DNA of 64,000 nucleotides, taken from a virus (taxonomy: Duplodnaviria; Caudoviricetes). A program made the translations under genes and the position numbers. The stretch spans positions 1 through 64,000 of the IMG/VR virus record IMGVR_UViG_3300027759_003844. One strand, given 5' to 3'. Positions 1 through 6,014 of this stretch are shown here, piece by piece. Position 1 is the first letter of the stretch; every line of letters begins with the position of its first letter. The notes below the pieces were generated by a model. The model was given only the letters and a program-made list of their open reading frames with translations, was not told the DNA's origin and made no database searches.

Positions 1-68
1 ACTCTTGATAGGGATGCGTGGATGGGCTATGCAAATGACCTAGAAAAGGAAGTTGAGATGCTGAAACA

Positions 69-314
69 ATGAACGAAATAGGTTACGAAAAATTCATTGA
101 AAAGATTGTCAATCCTGTGTCTAAATGCGTAATGAATGACGACGCAGTAAATGCTGCAGAACTCATTGATATGTGGCGTGGTGTTGCCGTGACTCTCTAT
201 CATGCAATCCAGGAAGGCGCTGGAGGAGAAGGTATGGAGGCATACTGGTGGGGCGAAAGAGAAGAAACGCGAATTATCAATTCACAGAGTTACCAAGGGG
301 CAAAGCGTGATTAA
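69..314 (+). CDS. hypothetical phage protein
   Basis: 81-aa ORF in a tightly packed run of plus-strand ORFs; no recognisable motif. Confidence 0.6.
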   Translation: MNEIGYEKFIEKIVNPVSKCVMNDDAVNAAELIDMWRGVAVTLYHAIQEGAGGEGMEAYWWGEREETRIINSQSYQGAKRD

Positions 315-450
315 CACGGTACTACTTGCAATTATCACTGGAATGTTGATTGGCAAATGGATTGTTGAGCCGCTCATTGACATTTATCAAGAGCGTAAAG
401 ACTTAGCCACATTCGAGATGATGTGGGACAAGAATGACTGGCAGGACTAG
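307..450 (+). CDS. small membrane protein
   Basis: GTG start overlapping the upstream ORF end; hydrophobic N-terminus (VLLAIITGMLIGKWIV). Confidence 0.55.
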   Translation: MINTVLLAIITGMLIGKWIVEPLIDIYQERKDLATFEMMWDKNDWQD

Positions 451-537
451 AAGTGTCTGACGCTCGTCCGTGCCAATGCGTCTATCGTGGTCCTATTCCA
501 AGAAATCCGATGTGCGGAGAAAAGCCAGACGATTTCG

Positions 538-732
538 ATGAGTAGGCCAGAATCTCCAATGACCGTGTTGTCCATTCGTCTCCACGACGCAGAACTAGAC
601 CGCGATTACTTTAAGGGTGCTGCACGGGCTATGGCGTATGTTATGCTCGTCGACTCTGGAATAGAAAAGCCAACAGAAGAGCATGTTCTGGAATTCATAG
701 AAAAAGTAGGCGGAAGGCGCGATATCTGGTGA
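538..732 (+). CDS. hypothetical phage protein
   Basis: ATG at 538; stop overlaps the next GTG start. Confidence 0.55.
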   Translation: MSRPESPMTVLSIRLHDAELDRDYFKGAARAMAYVMLVDSGIEKPTEEHVLEFIEKVGGRRDIW

Positions 733-968
733 GCGAAGAAGTTCATATCTGTCCACATTGTGGTGCAAGCCTTAAGGGTGAATACATCGACCAGAATTTA
801 ATTGATGATGGTAAGTACGCAGATTTATGCAAGATTTGCGGAGACAAGAACCACTGGAGACTAGAGACAGCGCTTGTTGACAGCAGTACTGGAGAAACAG
901 TTGGAATGGTATGCAACTCGTGCCGAAAGGGCTGGGACTTCAAGATTGGTCTCTTCCAGCAATCATAA
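729..968 (+). CDS. zinc-finger protein
   Basis: CPHC, CKIC and CNSC motifs. Confidence 0.65.
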   Translation: MSEEVHICPHCGASLKGEYIDQNLIDDGKYADLCKICGDKNHWRLETALVDSSTGETVGMVCNSCRKGWDFKIGLFQQS

Positions 969-1011
969 TTAGAGATGGAATCCATCTAATCTAAAAATGT
1001 GATACAGAAAT

Positions 1012-1206
1012 TTGATTTTTCACTATTTGAGATGGTTTAATAAGTGGACTATGTTTATCTTCTTCGCCATCTCCACTGTACTAATTTTTGCTATCCATAA
1101 GAGCGTAATGAAATCTGTTGATAACTACAACTACGGGCATGGCTCACATGAAGAATGGCGTGAGTTTGAAAAGCAGTTTCAGTATGAGGATGCTTTTAAG
1201 TTCTAA
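1012..1206 (+). CDS. small membrane protein
   Basis: single hydrophobic segment; start uncertain. Confidence 0.5.
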   Translation: MIFHYLRWFNKWTMFIFFAISTVLIFAIHKSVMKSVDNYNYGHGSHEEWREFEKQFQYEDAFKF

Positions 1207-1514
1207 AGACCAAGCATTCCCAGTATCTGGGTCTTGCCTTTTGCTCCAACTTCTCTTTTAACCATCTTTCCATTAGAGAATAGGATAAGTGTAGGGATGC
1301 TCATAACGCTATATTTTTGAGCCAAATCTCCGTACTGGTCAATATCAACCTTTGCGATAACAACAGAATCTGAATGCTCAGCATCAATATCTTTTAGGAT
1401 TGGTGCAATTGCTTTGCATGGACCACACCATTCGGCCCAGAAATCAACAAGAACTGGAACTGGCGAGGTCTTTATAACAGTGTCAAAATCTTTATTGCTT
1501 AGATTTACAATCAC
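1203..1514 (-). CDS. trxA: thioredoxin
   Basis: VLVDFWAEWCGPCK active site and SIPTL cis-Pro motif; GTG start overlaps the ferredoxin stop. Confidence 0.95.
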   Translation of the reverse strand: MIVNLSNKDFDTVIKTSPVPVLVDFWAEWCGPCKAIAPILKDIDAEHSDSVVIAKVDIDQYGDLAQKYSVMSIPTLILFSNGKMVKREVGAKGKTQILGMLGL

Positions 1515-1762
1515 TATTCTACCTCGATGAATATGCATTCACCAGGGCACTCTTCGGCTGACTCAAGAACATCGTCAAGCCTATCGTCTGCGAAAGAAGC
1601 CATTCCAGCGGCTCCTTCTGGGTTCCCCACAGCGGCCGCATAAATCTTGTCGCCTTCTTTGACATACGCAAGACCGTCTGGCATCATATGAAACACATCT
1701 GGGGCTATCTCCGCGCATAGTCCATCTCCAGTACACAGGTCTTGGTCAATCCATACTCTCAT
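1514..1762 (-). CDS. fdx: single-cluster ferredoxin, actinobacterial type
   Basis: DQDLCTGDGLCAEIAPDVF...EECPGECI motif. Confidence 0.92.
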   Translation of the reverse strand: MRVWIDQDLCTGDGLCAEIAPDVFHMMPDGLAYVKEGDKIYAAAVGNPEGAAGMASFADDRLDDVLESAEECPGECIFIEVE

Positions 1763-2595
1763 TTTTTCCCTTTGGTGATTGGTCCACCTGTCAATACATC
1801 AACACCAGTTTCAGTGACCAACACGGTGTGTTCAAATTGCGCGGTGCGCTTGCCGTCTGCAGTGACTGCTGTCCAGCCGTCGTTCCACATGCGGTGCTGC
1901 CATGTGCCAAGTGAAATCATCGGCTCAATCGTGAATGTCATGCCAGGTCGCATTATTGTATTGTTGCTCTTGTCGTAGTAGTGCAGCACCTGAATATCGG
2001 TGTGGAACTGCTCGCCAATACCGTGACCAATAAAGGCGCGAATAACGCTCATTTGGTCTTGTTTTGCTCGGGTTTCAATGGCTTTTCCAATGTCACTTAG
2101 TGGGCGACCAGGAACAACGGCTTCAATGCCGCGCCATGTGCACTCTTCGGTTACAGAAATTAGGTTGCGGCTCTCGTCGTCAATCTCGCCTACCGCAAAT
2201 GTTGCATTGGTGTCGCCATGAACGCCATTCATGTATGTGGTGACATCAAGATTAATGATGTCACCGTCTTGCAACACGCGTGAATCGGGAATTCCATGAC
2301 AAATCACTTCGTTCACTGAAGTGCACACACTCTTTGGATAGCCCGAATAATTCAATGGGCTCGGGTATGCACCACGCTCAATGCACAAGTTATGCACATA
2401 CACATCAATTTCATCGGTGGTTATTCCTGGACGAACAAATTCTCCTGCAAGGCGTAGTACTTCGGCAGCAGCAGAACACGCAATGCGCATGCGTTCAATA
2501 ATTTCAGGGGACTTCACAGCAGATTCCTGCCAGCGCGTGACCTTGCCAGTCTCTGCGTACGGCGGCTTCACAATGTGGTCAGGAACGCTCAACAT
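1759..2595 (-). CDS. map: type I methionine aminopeptidase, probably N-terminally clipped
   Basis: SVCTSVNEVICHGIP, DGDIINLDVT, HGDT, GHGIG, TFTIEPM and AQFEHT motifs; higher GC than flanks. Confidence 0.95.
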   Translation of the reverse strand: MLSVPDHIVKPPYAETGKVTRWQESAVKSPEIIERMRIACSAAAEVLRLAGEFVRPGITTDEIDVYVHNLCIERGAYPSPLNYSGYPKSVCTSVNEVICHGIPDSRVLQDGDIINLDVTTYMNGVHGDTNATFAVGEIDDESRNLISVTEECTWRGIEAVVPGRPLSDIGKAIETRAKQDQMSVIRAFIGHGIGEQFHTDIQVLHYYDKSNNTIMRPGMTFTIEPMISLGTWQHRMWNDGWTAVTADGKRTAQFEHTVLVTETGVDVLTGGPITKGKK

Positions 2596-2621
2596 AAGTC
2601 TTGATCAATCCACACTCTCAT
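2589..2621 (-). pseudogene. 10-codon remnant of a ferredoxin start (MRVWIDQDLC*), possibly a translated leader ORF
   Basis: encodes the same 10 residues as the fdx N-terminus at 1762 (26/30 nt identical); its last codons overlap the map ATG. Confidence 0.85.
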
Positions 2622-2627
2622 ATAGGA

Positions 2628-2651
2628 AGTATACCATTTTTACGCTATAAT
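2628..2651. promoter_or_regulatory. divergent -10 elements for probable leaderless transcripts
   Basis: minus-strand TGgTATACT (2636-2628) 6 nt before ATG 2621; plus-strand TATAAT (2646-2651) 6 nt before ATG 2658. Confidence 0.6.
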
Positions 2652-2657
2652 GGGAAC

Positions 2658-2831
2658 ATGCCACAGTACAACTATCGCTGCTCTAACGGACATACTCATG
2701 AAGAAGTACGATCTATTCTGGAAGACCAGAAACAAAAATATTGCCCCGAATGCAACGCAGAGCTAAAACAATCATATACCCCGCCAGGAATCCAATTTCA
2801 TGGACATGGCTTCTACCGTAACTCTAAATAA
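2658..2831 (+). CDS. FmdB-family zinc-ribbon protein
   Basis: MPQYNYRC..GH...CPEC...FHGHGFY pattern. Confidence 0.85.
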   Translation: MPQYNYRCSNGHTHEEVRSILEDQKQKYCPECNAELKQSYTPPGIQFHGHGFYRNSK

Positions 2832-2868
2832 TTCTAATACAATAAGTTGTGTATGATATAATGCTTAA

Positions 2869-2994
2869 GCGCACTCGTGGTGCTGCCGATCCTGTTTGTT
2901 CCCGCAAACACGGCAGTATGAGTTTCGCTATCTTAGGACCGTTATAGTTAACATCCAAGAGGAAAAGAGACCACTCCGCCGAGTGGTCTTTTTT
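2869..2994 (+). ncRNA. putative structured small RNA
   Basis: extended -10 TGaTATAAT at 2854-2862; nested stems GTGCTGCCG/CGGCAGTAT and TGTTTG/CAAACA; second hairpin; intrinsic terminator; no ORF. Confidence 0.55.
2963..2994 (+). terminator. intrinsic terminator
   Basis: AGAGACCACTC-CGCC-GAGTGGTCTTT followed by a T-run. Confidence 0.85.
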
Positions 2995-3126
2995 CTATTC
3001 TAACCCCAATTCCAGCCCTCCTCCCGAACTTTAAACCAGCCAACGCCCGAACACCGCCCAAACTCGTTTTTTTACAAAATTGAGTACATAAAAAAGATGT
3101 GTTATGCATGCATATTTGTAGGGGGG

Positions 3127-3140
3127 CGAACCTATGTTCG
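3127..3140. promoter_or_regulatory. LexA (SOS/Cheo) box
   Basis: CGAAC-CTAT-GTTCG matches the Gram-positive/actinobacterial CGAAC-N4-GTTCG consensus. Confidence 0.65.
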
Positions 3141-3208
3141 GTAGGGTCAAACCTAAGTTACTCACGGGTAAGTCAAGTTACCCAACAGTAGGTTGGTGAT
3201 ATATTACC

Positions 3209-3231
3209 AAACCCTTATGATATAAGGGTTT
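3209..3231. promoter_or_regulatory. palindromic operator-like site, copy 1
   Basis: AAACCCTTAT-GAT-ATAAGGGTTT perfect inverted repeat; recurs at 7166, degenerate at 8847 and 33457. Confidence 0.7.
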
Positions 3232-3337
3232 TATCCAAAAAATAGTTGTACGGGGGGCAAAAATCCGTAGTATCGTTGTATTCATAGGGGCAACCAAGCC
3301 ACTATCCCCCCCTAAGGGGGGCAACGGAAGGATACCA

Positions 3338-3760
3338 ATGAAAACGCTAGAGACAGTAAAGAAGGCAAACTTGGCAAGTGCCAAGAACCAATCCAAGCCA
3401 ATTCAGATAACACCGAAAATCCAAGCATGGTGGGCGAACCTAGAAAAAATCGCAACATCGGCAACCATTATCCCAACCGATCTACGCATTGCCACCCGAA
3501 CCAACGGGGCAACCCGTAGGGCATGGTGTGTAGCCAATCCAAAATCGGTAGTGATTGTCTCGGTCTCGGATATCGCTAACAAGGTTGGCAATCGCCCCGA
3601 AAATATCGTTAGGGCAAAACTAGACACCCTTACCAATGTCAAGGGCAACAACACTACGAAAAAAATCGGATATATCCGAGTGTTGGATAAATCAGTAGCC
3701 GATAGCAACCCAACCCACCCCGACACCGATAAGGTGTTCTGCTACAGAATTGCCAAGTAG
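3338..3760 (+). CDS. basic hypothetical protein, family A copy 1
   Basis: GGAAGG SD; shares KAN..SAK, RPE..V.A...TL, GY.R and KV..YR motifs with 4627-5040. Confidence 0.8.
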   Translation: MKTLETVKKANLASAKNQSKPIQITPKIQAWWANLEKIATSATIIPTDLRIATRTNGATRRAWCVANPKSVVIVSVSDIANKVGNRPENIVRAKLDTLTNVKGNNTTKKIGYIRVLDKSVADSNPTHPDTDKVFCYRIAK

Positions 3761-3879
3761 CCCCGAAAGGGGTGGGGGCAACCCCACCCCAAGGGGTCTC
3801 GGCAGGGTGTAGCCCTACCTTTACCGAAAATTTCACGCATACTCTTTACACAACAAAACAACAGAAAAGGAAAACCATT

Positions 3880-4080
3880 ATGAACACTGAAATTAGACCA
3901 AATATCCGAATGAAGGGAATGCCCGTAGCAATAGAACGGGTGGACAATATCCTAGTGATCTGGGTAGCCAGCCCAACGGGAGACAGTTCAGACAGTCACC
4001 TATTCCGTATGCCATGCGTGAACGAGGCACAAGCCGAGGTCATCATGGAGACATGGTTGAAGGTATGGGGGCTAGCATGA
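3880..4080 (+). CDS. hypothetical protein
   Basis: AAAAGGA SD before ATG 3880; ATGA overlap with the next gene. Confidence 0.75.
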   Translation: MNTEIRPNIRMKGMPVAIERVDNILVIWVASPTGDSSDSHLFRMPCVNEAQAEVIMETWLKVWGLA

Positions 4081-4220
4081 ATTGGTTCGGTATGTTCACG
4101 GTGCTACTAATCGTAGTGCTAGTGACTACGATTATCGCATACGAGATCGGCTACGATAAAGCGGTCAAGGATGTAACAATGTCCAAGACATGGCTAGACC
4201 TCAACAATAGAAAACGCTAG
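4077..4220 (+). CDS. small membrane protein
   Basis: ATGA-coupled start; one TM helix followed by GYDKA. Confidence 0.7.
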   Translation: MNWFGMFTVLLIVVLVTTIIAYEIGYDKAVKDVTMSKTWLDLNNRKR

Positions 4221-4237
4221 ATCGGTTGGTATCCGAG

Positions 4238-4270
4238 AAAAGTCCCCCGAGAAATCGGGGGCTTTTTTCT
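4238..4270 (+). terminator. intrinsic terminator
   Basis: CCCCCGA-GAAA-TCGGGGG followed by a T-run. Confidence 0.85.
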
Positions 4271-4575
4271 TTCCCAGAATATCTCTAAACTTACACAGAT
4301 GTAAACTTACAGGAAGGTGTAACCCTGCCCGCACCGTGTAAGTTTAGTGAATGTTTATGTAAAGCTTTATCTAAACTTACCAGCGTGTAAGTTTTGGCGG
4401 GCGGGTGTAGGCAGCATCGTTTCCCTCGCTTACACCCGTTGTACCGTTTATGGTACCTGTACCATTTGTAGTATGTGTGTGTAAGTTTACAAGCGTGTAC
4501 CTTTATCGGTACACAATGTAATTCTAAGTCGTGTAAGTTTACGCATGTACCCTTTATGAGACACATAAAAAATAT

Positions 4576-4610
4576 AAAAAAAGAGCGAGGCATTTCTGCC
4601 TCGCTCTCTC
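4576..4610 (-). terminator. intrinsic terminator
   Basis: GAGCGAGGCA-GAAA-TGCCTCGCTC plus T-run on the minus strand. Confidence 0.85.
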
Positions 4611-4626
4611 TTACTTACTTGCTGTA

Positions 4627-5040
4627 CTACTTACGGTATAGTACAACTTTGTAAGCGTCATCATTATTCATGTCGCTTGCTTCAGGCGTACCGTTCACGC
4701 ATAGACGCACATAGCCCACATTGACAAGCGACTTATCGTGCTTCTGCAAAGTTTGCATGATCGCAAGGACAGCCAATTCTGGGCGCATAACGCCTTTGTC
4801 ATTGAGCGTGACAGGCTTTGCACAAACTTTGCGCTGATCAACAACTACGCCAAACTTGACAGCGTGCGCACGCACGCTCAGTTTGTCTGTCATCTTTGGT
4901 GACGCTTGCGCCTTGTACATTTGCTCAGCAAATACTAAGTGATCAAATACTTGCTTCGTGCGAAGTTTGGCAGACTTCACATTTGCTTTGGCGATCTTTG
5001 CAATGAGCGCCTTTGCTTTCATCTTTGGACTAGTGGACAT
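4627..5040 (-). CDS. basic hypothetical protein, family A copy 2
   Basis: GAAAGG SD before ATG 5040; motif similarity to 3338-3760; own terminator. Confidence 0.8.
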   Translation of the reverse strand: MSTSPKMKAKALIAKIAKANVKSAKLRTKQVFDHLVFAEQMYKAQASPKMTDKLSVRAHAVKFGVVVDQRKVCAKPVTLNDKGVMRPELAVLAIMQTLQKHDKSLVNVGYVRLCVNGTPEASDMNNDDAYKVVLYRK

Positions 5041-5462
5041 GATGAGCCTTTCAGTTAGATGAGCGTTATTGCTCATGATGTAAGTATACACATACTTGAC
5101 CCAAAGCGGGCGCATTTGTTTGAGCCAATAAATGAGAATTATTCTCACTTATACCGTGTACCATAATCACCCCAAACTTACACGGGCACCCTGGTAGACT
5201 GGTCACACCACTGTGGATAGAGGCTTACAGGCGTGTAAGTTTAGTAGATTAGACTTTATGAGAGCCTAAACTTACACCATTTCGTGGGTGTAAGTCGGCT
5301 CCGCCAACCGACTTACACCCATGTAAGTTTACTGGCACTAATCTTTATGTTGAGTGTGTATTTTCTATGTAAGTTAACAGACATGTAAGTTTATGACAAT
5401 CTATTCAGTGGATAACTTACACAGGGTCTGGAATAGGGTCAAATTAGCCCGAAATCTAATGC

Positions 5463-5491
5463 TTGCAATTGGGTTGGGTATCGGGTAGGGT
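5463..5491 (+). promoter_or_regulatory. sigma70/SigA-type promoter
   Basis: TTGCAA-17 nt-TAGGGT upstream of 5541. Confidence 0.6.
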
Positions 5492-5540
5492 TGAGCGTAG
5501 CGAAACAAGTCGCACCTAAACGAAAGGCAAAACTTACACC

Positions 5541-5765
5541 ATGTCCTACCTAACCTGTAAGATTAGGAACAGAATAAATTACCGAGACAACTTGCCCCAT
5601 GAATTCATGTTCATTGGCACTAACTCTCACGAGGTACAGAACGGGTACACACTTACCCAAATCCATGCAACCTGTAAGTTTTGTGGTGTTCTGAACACTA
5701 CAACACAAATAGAAAATAGCGATCATTCATATTCACAAATACTAGGCGATACGGAAGGGTACTAA
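5541..5765 (+). CDS. hypothetical protein with CxxC
   Basis: GAAAGG SD; CKFC motif. Confidence 0.7.
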   Translation: MSYLTCKIRNRINYRDNLPHEFMFIGTNSHEVQNGYTLTQIHATCKFCGVLNTTTQIENSDHSYSQILGDTEGY

Positions 5766-5771
5766 ACTTAC

Positions 5772-6014
5772 ATGAACACATACGAGGTATCTTGGCAATT
5801 TGAGAAGGGTAATCAAGAATGGGCAGACAGTTTTCTCTACTACGCCGAAAATATAGAGGAATTAGGAAAACTATTACGCTCTATCAAAAATGACAAGGAT
5901 AGTGACGATCCTGACATGAGTGTAATTTTTGCACAAATCTGTGACGATGATCTAGACAATGCAGATGACCGAGACATTACAGACGAACTACCCGAAGATA
6001 TTCTTGCTGACTAA
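5772..6014 (+). CDS. highly acidic hypothetical protein
   Basis: GGAAGG SD; Asp/Glu-rich C-terminal half. Confidence 0.75.
   Translation: MNTYEVSWQFEKGNQEWADSFLYYAENIEELGKLLRSIKNDKDSDDPDMSVIFAQICDDDLDNADDRDITDELPEDILAD

What the first reader, a model, noticed from the sequence alone, without database searches (positions are those of the whole stretch)
1733..2636. Snapshot of host-gene capture: map inserted into a phage ferredoxin gene, leaving a duplicated 10-codon start
Seen: the promoter-proximal mini-ORF 2621-2589 encodes MRVWIDQDLC*, identical to the first 10 residues of the ferredoxin at 1762 (26/30 nt identical, all differences synonymous). Its Leu-Cys-stop codons overlap the map start (TT-ATG-TTG-A), and it begins 6 nt after an extended -10. 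map is more GC-rich than its flanks. Inference: a host map-fdx segment entered the phage's existing fdx by homologous recombination on one side and a short ATGT microhomology on the other. The old fdx start now serves as a leaderless coupling ORF that feeds ribosomes to a clipped MetAP.
Basis: partly seen in the sequence, partly recalled or inferred. Interest (0 to 1): 0.72.

Follow-up and report, generated by a model that had tools for sequence, protein, structure and literature searches.

The report
Host MetAP cassette in ferredoxin start
A freshwater phage carries a shortened copy of its host's methionine aminopeptidase gene wedged into the first ten codons of a phage ferredoxin gene, and the same scarred cassette turns up in several related phages, giving a base-by-base record of how viruses take and trade host genes.

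Summary
The mini-ORF 2621-2589(-) repeats the first 10 ferredoxin codons (26/30 nt, all changes synonymous). Its stop overlaps the map start.

The mini-ORF is the old start of a resident ferredoxin gene. A sister contig (L096) has the same promoter driving an intact fdx without map.

This is not a fresh capture in this phage. The same two joints occur in G000 plus 9 (left joint) and 8 (right joint) other IMG/VR contigs, in 7 upstream contexts. Five of those contexts have empty-site relatives.

The right joint is not homologous recombination with a host map-fdx segment. The closest hosts do not have the two genes adjacent. It is a second microhomology joint into the tail of a phage gene, X. One capture with a roughly 59-nt target duplication, followed by spread through the conserved fdx 5' end, fits best.

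The contig is probably rho-shaped: window 1-1870 (trxA-fdx) may belong to another variant.

First-reader notes of this scan record the same cassette on three other genomes. This is a new variant of known phage mosaicism, of moderate interest.

The parts
2628..2656 (-). Promoter-like site: -35 TTCCCA (2656-2651), 17-nt spacer, TG-extended -10 TATACT (2633-2628). It ends 6 nt before the mini-ORF ATG, so the transcript may be leaderless.
   Evidence: consensus scan; the number of sites in the region is not above chance. 55 of 60 nt upstream of the ATG are identical in L096, where the same sequence precedes an intact fdx.
2589..2621 (-). Mini-ORF MRVWIDQDLC*: the 5' remnant (codons 1-10) of the resident ferredoxin gene. 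Its TGA overlaps the map start (ATGTTGA).
   Evidence: It shares the rare GAT (Asp6) and TTA (Leu9) codons with the L096 fdx.
2592..2621 (-). Left direct repeat (fdx nt 1-30).
   Evidence: family D2: 26/30 identical to 1733-1762, spacing 859.
1759..2595 (-). map: type I methionyl aminopeptidase, 278 aa, clipped at both ends relative to the host gene.
   Evidence: PF00557, 174 bits, profile 1-208/208. (TIGR00500, 300.3 bits against a cut-off of 171.35). (alignment A1).
1784..2595 (-). Host-derived core: 812 nt collinear with the acIV MAG gene, from its internal Met codon to ...LTGG.
   Evidence: 87.3%, 0 gaps, L097 2639-3450. (GC 50.0% against host 50.1%).
1763..1791 (-). Right joint (microhomology ACAGGTGG, 1791-1784) followed by a 21-nt tail derived from the 3' end of phage gene X (1783-1763). 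This tail gives the map C-terminus PITKGKK.
   Evidence: three-way alignment of host, window and X-fdx loci L018/L037. (10 of 80 fdx loci show the X-fdx context).
1733..1762 (-). Right direct repeat: the first 10 codons of the ferredoxin gene. The ATG overlaps the map stop (ATGA).
1514..1762 (-). fdx: 82-aa single-cluster ferredoxin.
   Evidence: Fer4_15, 61.6 bits. 515 viral contigs encode relatives.
1203..1514 (-). trxA (thioredoxin). A GTG start overlaps the fdx stop by one base (TAGTG). An in-frame ATG at 1538 is an alternative start.
   Evidence: TIGR01068, 122 bits.
2658..2831 (+). Divergent Zn-ribbon (FmdB-type) gene. It has TATAAT 6 nt before its ATG and shares the intergenic region with the map operon.
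   Evidence: PF09723, 36.4 bits. A homologue occupies the same position in L096.
1871..1997 (.). 127 nt identical to the last 127 nt of the 109,177-nt record. This is the probable closure point of a rho-shaped assembly path.
1..1870 (.). Probable spur: trxA-fdx-map 3' end, from a co-occurring variant or phage that shares map. The alternative is that this is a genuine second locus.
   Evidence: L096 joins window 2845-2593 directly to record 108942-104535.

Best explanation
The region is a scarred gene-capture cassette, not a fresh event in this phage.

Step 1 (shown by joint anatomy; mechanism inferred). In an ancestral phage of freshwater acIV Acidimicrobiia, gene X was followed by a ferredoxin gene. 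An internal 812-nt piece of the host map gene was inserted there through two microhomology joints. The left joint is ATG(T): fdx codon 10 joined to the host's internal Met codon. The right joint is ACTGGYGG: host ...LTGG joined to the last 8 codons of X. The re-entry point lies upstream of the exit point, so about 59 nt of phage DNA (the X tail plus fdx codons 1-10) ended up duplicated on both sides. Template switching during replication would give exactly this pattern. The enzyme lost its SEC-C N-terminal motif and its last 12 residues. It kept the whole catalytic domain and gained PITKGKK from X.

Step 2 (shown by distribution; mechanism inferred). The fdx 5' end is nearly invariant at the DNA level among these phages. 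The cassette, or equivalently its flanks, was then exchanged by recombination inside that 20-30-nt homology. It now sits in at least 7 upstream contexts. In the G000 lineage it landed in a leaderless promoter-fdx-SNase locus like that of L096.

Step 3 (inferred). map has no Shine-Dalgarno sequence or promoter of its own. The 10-codon remnant keeps the resident start signals. In this window that is a -10 element 6 nt upstream; in other contexts it is a TAATG overlap with the upstream gene. The remnant passes ribosomes to map by stop/start overlap (ATGTTGA), and map passes them to fdx (ATGA). The product is a free catalytic MetAP that would support N-terminal Met removal during infection.
For: Duplication and overlaps.

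Donor: searches show 87.3% nt identity over 812 nt with 0 gaps, and the homology starts exactly at the phage ATG and ends at ...ACAGG; 258/270 aa identical, 83 synonymous against 12 non-synonymous codon differences, and GC 50.0% against 50.1% in a 37.8% GC phage; the phage clade has 100/97 support and groups with L097 and L098 at 100/99.

Joints: one search gives the three-way alignments at both ends; the L015 left flank against the window right flank is 47/59 identical.

X-fdx context without map: 10 of 80 fdx loci (9 of them form one cluster).

X followed by mini-ORF and map: L015 and a Logan contig of run X2 (loose end at 2621).

Same joints elsewhere: the left joint is in 9 IMG/VR contigs plus G000, and the right joint is in 8. 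There are 7 upstream contexts.

Empty-site relatives for 5 of 7 contexts. L096 joins window 2845-2593 to record 108942-104535 with nothing but the 30-nt repeat in between.

The cassette lies inside a complete genome with terminal repeats (G002, 158.7 kb, one copy).

fdx sits at a mosaic boundary: 26 upstream-context clusters among 78 loci. Synonymous-site diversity is lowest in codons 2-13 (0.51 against 0.77 and 1.05 bits).

Catalytic domain intact.
Against: No RNA data were available (0 of 20 runs are on record as RNA), so the promoter, the leaderless start and the coupling are untested. The promoter scan is not above chance.

The crossover that put the cassette into the L096-like locus would have to lie within about 12 nt of the joint, because the window remnant keeps the resident-specific GAT at nt 18. 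That is very short for homologous recombination.

Only one filled/empty pair (G000 and L096) shows both flanks resident, and that pair depends on reading the contig as a circle. For L013-L016 the contigs end inside map, so their downstream sides are unknown.

The ancestral X-fdx context is inferred from the tail and from L015. The L015 contig stops before the right side.

L010/L012, L011 and L193/L197/L198 carry further, different joints. Recombination here is therefore not purely homologous.
Confidence: 0.78

Rival explanations
1. In this very phage, a host DNA segment carrying map next to fdx recombined with the phage's own fdx. One side was homologous recombination within fdx and the other was an ATGT microhomology. 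On this reading the window is a snapshot of the capture.
For: The left joint is indeed an ATG(T) microhomology. map is host-like in sequence and GC. The hosts do have a 75% identical fdx.
Against: The host map neighbours are tad/CpaF-type genes and pantothenate kinase, with no fdx in the 2.5-kb flanks of L097 or L098. Only 1 weak hit was found among 80 cellular loci. The 21 nt between the map core and the fdx ATG match the tail of phage gene X, not host DNA. The same two joints occur in 9 and 8 other IMG/VR contigs in other contexts.
Confidence: 0.04
2. Assembly or amplification chimera of phage and host DNA at a shared short word.
For: Many contigs break inside map: L011-L016, L035, L193, L197, L198, L205 and the end of G000 itself. 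The scan note e1-5741982 proposed this for another genome.
Against: Phage DNA lies on both sides of map in complete or long contigs: G002 with terminal repeats, and G001 at 160 kb. The joint recurs in contigs from 9 other IMG/VR records, one JGI metagenome contig and Logan contigs of other studies. The phage copies form their own clade, 12-13% diverged in DNA from the host gene. The breaks are what a sequence shared by several genomes does to a de Bruijn graph.
Confidence: 0.02
3. The contig is correct as a linear record and this phage has two map-fdx loci. One is mini-ORF-map-fdx-trxA at the left. The second is map-fdx'-SNase, running off the right end.
For: The assembler did join 1-1870 to the rest. 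Window 1-1200 and 2622-6000 have similar GC (43.7% and 44.2%), against 37.9% for 104-108.7 kb. fdx-trxA contexts exist in other phages (L023 and L024).
Against: The last 127 nt of the record equal 1871-1997 exactly, and 127 is a common largest word length in assemblers (recalled). L096 carries the two halves of the locus, the Zn-ribbon-promoter-fdx start and fdx-SNase and beyond, contiguously. In G000 these halves lie at opposite ends of the record, each abutting map. The long or complete relatives examined have one copy each. No part of window 1-1513 has a relative elsewhere in the record.
Confidence: 0.2
4. Site-specific cassette system. The conserved core at the fdx start (about 12-21 nt) is a dedicated recombination site cut or exchanged by a phage enzyme. 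Cassettes excise as circles and re-insert, integron- or PeSL-like.
For: Several independent joints cluster at nt 20-21 of fdx: the L010-type joint, L011, and the 60-aa membrane gene of L003/L066. The left edge in L010 is at nt 10. Three different inserted genes carry fdx-start remnants. Synonymous sites of codons 4-9 are almost invariant.
Against: No recombinase or nuclease gene travels with the cassette (859 nt, one ORF). The joints are not at one nucleotide: they fall at nt 10, 20, 21, 30 and about 40. Each has its own microhomology to the partner sequence. Selection for insertions that inherit a working start signal would produce the same clustering.
Confidence: 0.1

Closest known systems
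Phage genome mosaicism by illegitimate recombination plus recombination between short or diverged homologies (Hendrix-type model; lambda Red / Rad52-like 'relaxed' recombination, PMC2327257 and PMC3945230: I saw only the search listing and abstract starts)
   Same: Both show novel joints at microhomologies, later exchange through short conserved sequences at gene boundaries, and the same gene in many neighbourhoods.
   Different: Here both joints of a host-to-phage capture can be read to the nucleotide, with donor, empty site and filled site all in hand. The 'linker' is the coding 5' end of a gene, and it leaves a translatable 10-codon remnant.
PeSL mobile regulatory cassettes of T4-type phages (recalled from memory; my search for it failed on a term-length error, and was not repeated)
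   Same: Single genes are bracketed by direct repeats and found in different positions of related phage genomes. Repeat-mediated excision and insertion is the proposed mechanism.
   Different: PeSL repeats are promoter plus stem-loop elements. Here the repeats are the first 30 nt of a ferredoxin ORF (59 nt with the X tail). No circles have been looked for here.
Cyanophage peptide deformylase as an auxiliary gene (PMC3660681; I read one passage of the introduction)
   Same: Both are host-derived enzymes of co-translational N-terminal processing carried by a phage.
   Different: The enzyme differs (MetAP acts after deformylase), and so do the host group and habitat. I found no paper on phage MetAP in freshwater actinophages.
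SEC-C-bearing type I MetAP of Acidimicrobiia (donor family; P0001, P0002, P0027, L097)
   Same: The catalytic domain is 93-96% identical and the five conserved acidic/His columns are kept.
   Different: The phage form lacks the 46-residue N-terminal SEC-C part and the last 12 residues, and carries 7 residues from a phage gene.
Microhomology-mediated template switching (MMBIR/FoSTeS-type insertions with target duplication; recalled)
   Same: Both show an insertion bounded by 3-8-nt microhomologies, with re-entry upstream of the exit point giving a flanking duplication.
   Different: That mechanism is described mainly in cellular genomes. Here it is only inferred from the product.

Membership tests
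Type I methionyl aminopeptidase (TIGR00500 / Pfam PF00557) | Family HMM score above the curated cut-off, over the full catalytic domain | tested here: met
   TIGR00500: 300.3 bits against a cut-off of 171.35, profile positions 3-245 of 247. PF00557: 174.2 bits, profile 1-208 of 208.
Type I methionyl aminopeptidase (TIGR00500 / Pfam PF00557) | Five metal-ligand residues (Asp, Asp, His, Glu, Glu) present | tested here: met
   Columns D163, D174, H237, E270 and E301 (P0002 numbering) are invariant in all 11 sequences of alignment A1, including the window protein. That these columns are the metal ligands is recalled, not computed.
Type I methionyl aminopeptidase (TIGR00500 / Pfam PF00557) | Removes N-terminal Met from peptides | not testable with these tools
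   Needs an enzyme assay.
SEC-C-motif MetAP subclass of Acidimicrobiia | N-terminal CWCGSGRKYKRCH-type SEC-C motif (PF02810) | tested here: not met
   The motif is present in P0002 (34.6 bits) and in L097. It is absent from the window protein, and a TGA four codons upstream of the ATG excludes an extension.
Single-cluster ferredoxin (Pfam Fer4_15 / Fer4_13) | HMM above cut-off, with Cys ligands at CxxxxxC ... CPGEC | tested here: met
   fdx 1762-1514: Fer4_15 61.6 bits (cut-off 22.4) and Fer4_13 43.8 bits. The mini-ORF has only the first Cys, so it is a remnant and not a ferredoxin.
Repeat-flanked mobile gene cassettes of phages (PeSL-like) | Cassette bracketed by direct repeats | tested here: met
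   30-nt repeats, 26/30 identical. 47/59 identical when the X tail is included (L015 left against window right).
Repeat-flanked mobile gene cassettes of phages (PeSL-like) | Same cassette at different genomic positions in related phages | tested here: met
   7 upstream contexts in 10 records.
Repeat-flanked mobile gene cassettes of phages (PeSL-like) | Repeats are promoter plus stem-loop regulatory elements | tested here: not met
   The repeats are the coding start of fdx. The promoter-like site lies outside the repeat and is specific to this context.
Repeat-flanked mobile gene cassettes of phages (PeSL-like) | Circular excised intermediates | not testable with these tools
   Only assembled contigs of public runs were available. 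Raw virome reads are needed.
Transposon / insertion sequence | Transposase gene, terminal inverted repeats and a short fixed target duplication | tested here: not met
   The 859-nt unit holds only map. No terminal inverted repeats were found. The duplication is 30-59 nt.
Leaderless, translationally coupled operon | -10 element about 6-7 nt before the first ATG, and stop/start overlaps between cistrons | tested here: met
   Sequence level only: TGGTATACT ends 6 nt before the ATG, and the overlaps are ATGTTGA, ATGA and TAGTG.
Leaderless, translationally coupled operon | Transcript 5' end at the ATG, and dependence of downstream translation on the upstream ORF | not testable with these tools
   0 of 20 runs are RNA.

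The most novel reading that the evidence does not exclude
The nearly invariant start of this phage ferredoxin gene is a dedicated landing pad. It would be a short core sequence at which a phage-encoded recombination function captures host and phage genes, supplies them with a ready-made start signal through a relay mini-ORF, and lets them excise and re-insert as single-gene circles among phages of acIV Actinobacteria. That would make it a coding-sequence analogue of integron or PeSL cassette sites.
Probability: 0.12. Interest if true: 0.8.

Novelty: new variant of a known kind. Interest (0 to 1): 0.55.

Why it matters
Host-gene capture by lytic phages is usually inferred from trees. Here the donor lineage, the empty site, the filled site and both joints can all be read at single-base resolution. 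They point to two microhomology joints with a target duplication, followed by spread through a 20-30-nt conserved coding sequence.

The case shows how a captured gene fragment can be expressed at once by borrowing the start of the gene it interrupts. It ties a group of uncultured freshwater phages to acIV Acidimicrobiia hosts. It adds a MetAP without its ribosome-docking-type motif to the list of phage auxiliary genes.

It is also a warning for annotation. A gene shared by several co-occurring phages breaks and mis-joins metagenome contigs, as probably happened at the start of this record.

Tried and rejected
(1) Phage GenBank collection. The only hits were 72-nt trxA matches to engineered T7 records, so there were no relatives there.

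(2) The look-up of encoding contigs for P0002. I used the search for related loci on genome contigs instead.

(3) Public runs. All 20 runs are kept as assembled contigs and none is RNA. No listed piece spans the whole stretch 1000-3400. In X1 no listed piece covers 1510-1741, and I draw nothing from that hole. Word depths in X1 (map unitig about 41, flanks 2.6-5.4) agree with map being shared by several genomes. The tool states that contig depths cannot rank parts of a gene, so I do not count them as evidence. No piece bridges 2595 with 31 or more letters on both sides in the window's own context: X1 record 6 has 29 letters on the map side. The bridging evidence comes from L205.

(4) Exact-pattern scans of IMG/VR for the fdx' 5' end of the record's right end and for the fdx-trxA joint of the window. 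Both returned 0 hits, so neither downstream version has independent support.

(5) tblastx of window 1-1513 against the rest of the record and of the left part of L096 against the record. Neither gave a match.

(6) A search for other loci with duplicated fdx starts. At 4 or fewer mismatches in 20 nt, only map-associated duplications appear (9 of 101 viral loci). More decayed remnants (L016, L003/L066) had to be found by eye.

(7) Literature. No paper in the held library links methionine aminopeptidase with freshwater actinophages. PMC6802176 (passages read) predicts acIV-infecting phages and discusses thioredoxin, but it has no occurrence of aminopeptidase or ferredoxin in its main text. Its supplementary tables could not be seen and may list such genes.

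(8) Tree. I gave it 30 of the 80 cellular loci plus 5 viral copies. Five cellular rows (L115, L118, L119, L125, L156) were dropped because the tblastn range contained a stop.

(9) Considered and rejected: a regulatory leader peptide (there is no evidence beyond descent), and transposition (see the membership test).
Full report
WHAT IS THERE. On the minus strand of window 1200-2660 lies a tightly packed unit.
- A promoter-like site, TTCCCA-17-TG-TATACT, at 2656-2628.
- Six bases later, a 10-codon ORF, MRVWIDQDLC* (2621-2589).
- map (2595-1759): a type I methionyl aminopeptidase of 278 aa (TIGR00500 300 bits; PF00557 full length).
- fdx (1762-1514): an 82-aa Fer4_15 ferredoxin.
- trxA (1514-1203).

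Every cistron overlaps the next: ATGTTGA, ATGA and TAGTG. A divergent Zn-ribbon gene starts at 2658 on the plus strand. The mini-ORF and the first 30 nt of fdx are a direct repeat, 26/30 identical with all changes synonymous and spacing of 859 nt. That includes the GC contrast: map core 50.0%, the whole 109-kb virus record 37.8%.

THE RECORD ITSELF. The window is the first 64 kb of a 109,177-nt IMG/VR record classed as linear. Its right end (108704-109177) is a second copy of the map 3' end plus a different ferredoxin, fdx'. The last 127 nt equal window 1871-1997 exactly. The map part is 231/235 identical, and the fdx part is only 181/249 identical. Downstream comes a SNase gene, not trxA.

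A sister contig, L096, carries the Zn-ribbon gene, the same promoter (55/60 nt), an intact 81-aa fdx, then SNase, a 219-aa gene and a 2OG-oxygenase gene. It matches window 2845-2593 and then record 108942-104535 (87% over 2250 nt, then 942 nt), with only the 30-nt repeat shared between the two matches. The two halves of one L096-type locus thus sit at opposite ends of the record, each abutting map.

The simplest reading is a rho-shaped assembly path. The real molecule closes through map, giving promoter - mini-ORF - map - fdx' - SNase, which is L096 plus an 859-nt insert. Window 1-1870 (map 3' end - fdx - trxA) is then a spur from a co-occurring phage that shares map. I put this at about 0.75. 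The alternative, two loci in one genome, is not excluded. The feature under study (2589-2621 and its joint with map) does not depend on this question. An independent metagenome contig, L205, is 98.6% identical to window 6379-2481 and crosses the joint.

WHERE MAP CAME FROM. The best protein matches are 329-334-aa enzymes with an N-terminal SEC-C motif and a C-terminal ...GGTGAASPFAPWNR. In GTDB genomes the closest genes are in an acIV MAG (L097) and a second MAG (L098). Window 2595-1784 aligns to L097 2639-3450 at 87.3% without a gap. 258 of 270 residues are identical, with 83 synonymous against 12 non-synonymous codon differences, equal GC and no drift toward phage composition.

In a tree of 30 sequences, the phage copies (window, L003, L010) form one clade (100/97). 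That clade joins L097 and L098 (100/99) inside an Ilumatobacteraceae/Acidimicrobiia clade. In L097, map lies between tad/CpaF-type genes and pantothenate kinase. No ferredoxin lies within 2.5 kb in L097 or L098, and only 1 of 80 cellular loci gives even a weak hit. The hosts do have a 75%-identical ferredoxin, but elsewhere and with its own Shine-Dalgarno sequence. The predicted host map-fdx adjacency is therefore not found.

THE TWO JOINTS.
- Left joint. The host reads ...AGCCCA ATGTTGACC. The resident fdx (L096) reads ...GACTT ATGCACTGG. The window reads ...GACTT ATGTTGAGC. The switch is inside ATG, or ATGT in the many fdx alleles with TGT at codon 10. The host's internal Met codon becomes the start.
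- Right joint. The host reads ...TTAACTGGCGGC ACTGGTGCC. The window reads ...TTGACAGGTGGA CCAATCACCAAAGGGAAAAA ATG. The 21 nt before the fdx ATG match the last codons of a phage gene, X (...GGPITKEK*). X directly precedes fdx in 10 of the 80 fdx loci fetched (9 of them cluster).

The map C-terminus PITKGKK is therefore phage-derived, and the switch lies in ACTGGYGG. Because re-entry (the X tail) is upstream of exit (fdx codon 10), the original insertion duplicated about 59 nt. The left flank of L015, where a full X gene precedes the mini-ORF and map, matches the window's right flank at 47/59. A Logan contig from another study shows the same order, X tail then mini-ORF then map (run X2, loose end at 2621). 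A replication template switch from phage to host DNA and back would give this product. That mechanism is inference.

NOT A SNAPSHOT: THE CASSETTE IS SHARED. The left joint occurs in 9 IMG/VR contigs besides this record, and the right joint occurs in 8. Upstream of the remnant there are 7 different contexts:
- the Zn-ribbon and promoter (this window, and L205);
- thyX, a 212-aa gene and a 60-aa gene (L003-5);
- a truncated membrane gene (L010, L012);
- a 133-aa gene (L013);
- SNase (L014);
- X (L015);
- a 235-aa gene (L016).

In 6 of the 7 contexts the remnant keeps its own ATG and variable codons 2-3 (Arg or Lys; Val or Ala), as expected if they come from each resident fdx. For 5 of the 7 contexts there are relatives in which the same upstream gene runs straight into an intact fdx, with the alignments ending at fdx nt 29-30.

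One carrier (G002, 158.7 kb) has terminal repeats and a single internal copy. That rules out a phage-host chimera. Many contigs end inside map, which is the expected behaviour of a sequence shared by several genomes in one assembly graph.

THE FERREDOXIN START AS A RECOMBINATION HOTSPOT. 515 viral contigs encode this ferredoxin. Among the 78 fetched loci with enough upstream sequence there are 26 upstream-context clusters, and 74 of the 78 have no map. Synonymous-site diversity is lowest in codons 2-13: 0.51 bits, against 0.77 for codons 14-40 and 1.05 for codons 41-80.

Further joints fall in the same 40 nt.
- The L010/L193/L197/L198 type and L011 both break after ...TGGATTGACCAA, into different partners.
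- A 60-aa membrane gene in L003 and L066 is fused after fdx nt 20.
- L016 has a decayed 40-nt fdx start in front of a 235-aa gene, which in turn precedes the mini-ORF and map.
- A fragment of the fdx 3' end lies about 2 kb downstream in G001.

First-reader notes of this scan describe the same things on three other genomes (e1-5632360, e1-5743696, e1-5741982). I reached them independently and checked them in part.

There are two non-exclusive causes. One is recombination favoured by a short, nearly invariant sequence. The other is selection, because an insert placed just after a working start is expressed at once. A dedicated site-specific system is possible but has no direct support.

HOW IT PROBABLY WORKS NOW. 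map has no promoter or Shine-Dalgarno sequence of its own. In this window the remnant sits where the L096 fdx start sits, 6 nt after a TG-extended -10. A leaderless transcript whose first ORF is the remnant is therefore plausible, although the scan is not above chance and no RNA data exist. In other contexts the remnant's ATG overlaps the stop of the upstream gene (TAATG). In all contexts the remnant's stop lies one base after the map ATG, and the map stop overlaps the fdx ATG. A termination-reinitiation relay is the best-supported reading, but it is inferred.

The enzyme keeps the full catalytic domain and the five conserved Asp/Asp/His/Glu/Glu columns. It lacks the SEC-C part. Shorter natural forms that start at the same position exist (P0087, 279 aa), so the truncation need not inactivate it. 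The likely role is to support N-terminal Met removal during infection, alongside the ferredoxin and thioredoxin that these phages also carry.

COMPARISON AND VERDICT. This is phage mosaicism and auxiliary-gene capture, which are known kinds. It is seen here at unusual resolution and with an unusual twist: the coding start of a gene serves as the shared flank and as an expression relay. It resembles T4-type PeSL cassettes in being repeat-flanked and multi-context, but it fails their defining regulatory-repeat feature. It is not a transposon.

I found no paper on phage MetAP in freshwater actinophages.

Interest is 0.55. Confidence in the core history (single capture, two microhomology joints, later spread through the fdx start) is about 0.78. 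Confidence in the relay-expression model is about 0.5.

Noticed in passing
G000 record 108704-109177 (locus L002 1501-1974) and window 1524-1997: The right end of the 109-kb record repeats the map 3' end and a divergent fdx. The last 127 nt are identical to an internal stretch. The 'linear, 100% complete' record is probably a circle plus a spur of about 1.87 kb.
   Followed up: yes
L006-L009 (IMG/VR contigs, map at 3983-4843): GC-rich viral contigs carry a different MetAP (73-76% identical, 286 aa). It has no SEC-C motif and no fdx remnant, and it keeps a native-type C-terminus. In the tree it sits with another Acidimicrobiaceae MAG (L160). This is either an independent capture or misclassified cellular DNA.
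   Followed up: partly
L003 3793-3975 and L066 about 2833: A 60-aa membrane-protein gene begins with the first 20 nt of fdx (MKVWI...). This is a second gene that entered at the ferredoxin start. It is present in both the filled and the empty map site.
   Followed up: partly
L016 3190-3245: A decayed 40-nt ferredoxin start (its ATG lost) lies between a SNase-type gene and a 235-aa gene of no Pfam family. That gene is itself followed by the mini-ORF and map, so remnants are stacked in series.
   Followed up: partly
L182 about 1501-1564 (G001 151936-151999): An isolated fragment of the ferredoxin 3' end (64 nt, 80%) lies about 2 kb downstream of the intact fdx. This suggests insertions at the 3' end of the gene as well.
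   Followed up: no
P0006 (276 aa, on a 46.5-kb contig): Another clipped MetAP with the same start and a ...CGGPITK end. Its second half is much more diverged, so it is a mosaic between the phage cassette and another map allele.
   Followed up: no
window 1514-1762: fdx is itself GC-rich (50.6%, against 37.8% for the record). acIV MAGs encode a 75% identical ferredoxin. fdx is therefore likely an older host-derived gene, now in 515 viral contigs.
   Followed up: partly
L015 3583-3975; L016 574-2799: Gene X exists as a 130-aa form and as the N-terminal part of a 741-aa protein that also has DUF6321. Logan contigs (loose end at 1775) show a map copy whose X-derived tail runs on into the long form.
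   Followed up: no
G000 about 106061-106137 and 106800-106880: Stretches of 73-82 nt, 90-100% identical to many otherwise unrelated viral loci. They are probably tRNA genes near the fdx-SNase region. This was not checked with the tRNA tool.
   Followed up: no
window 2962-2995: A strong terminator-like hairpin on the minus strand (9 pairs) lies upstream of the Zn-ribbon/map intergenic region. The map unit therefore needs its own promoter.
   Followed up: no
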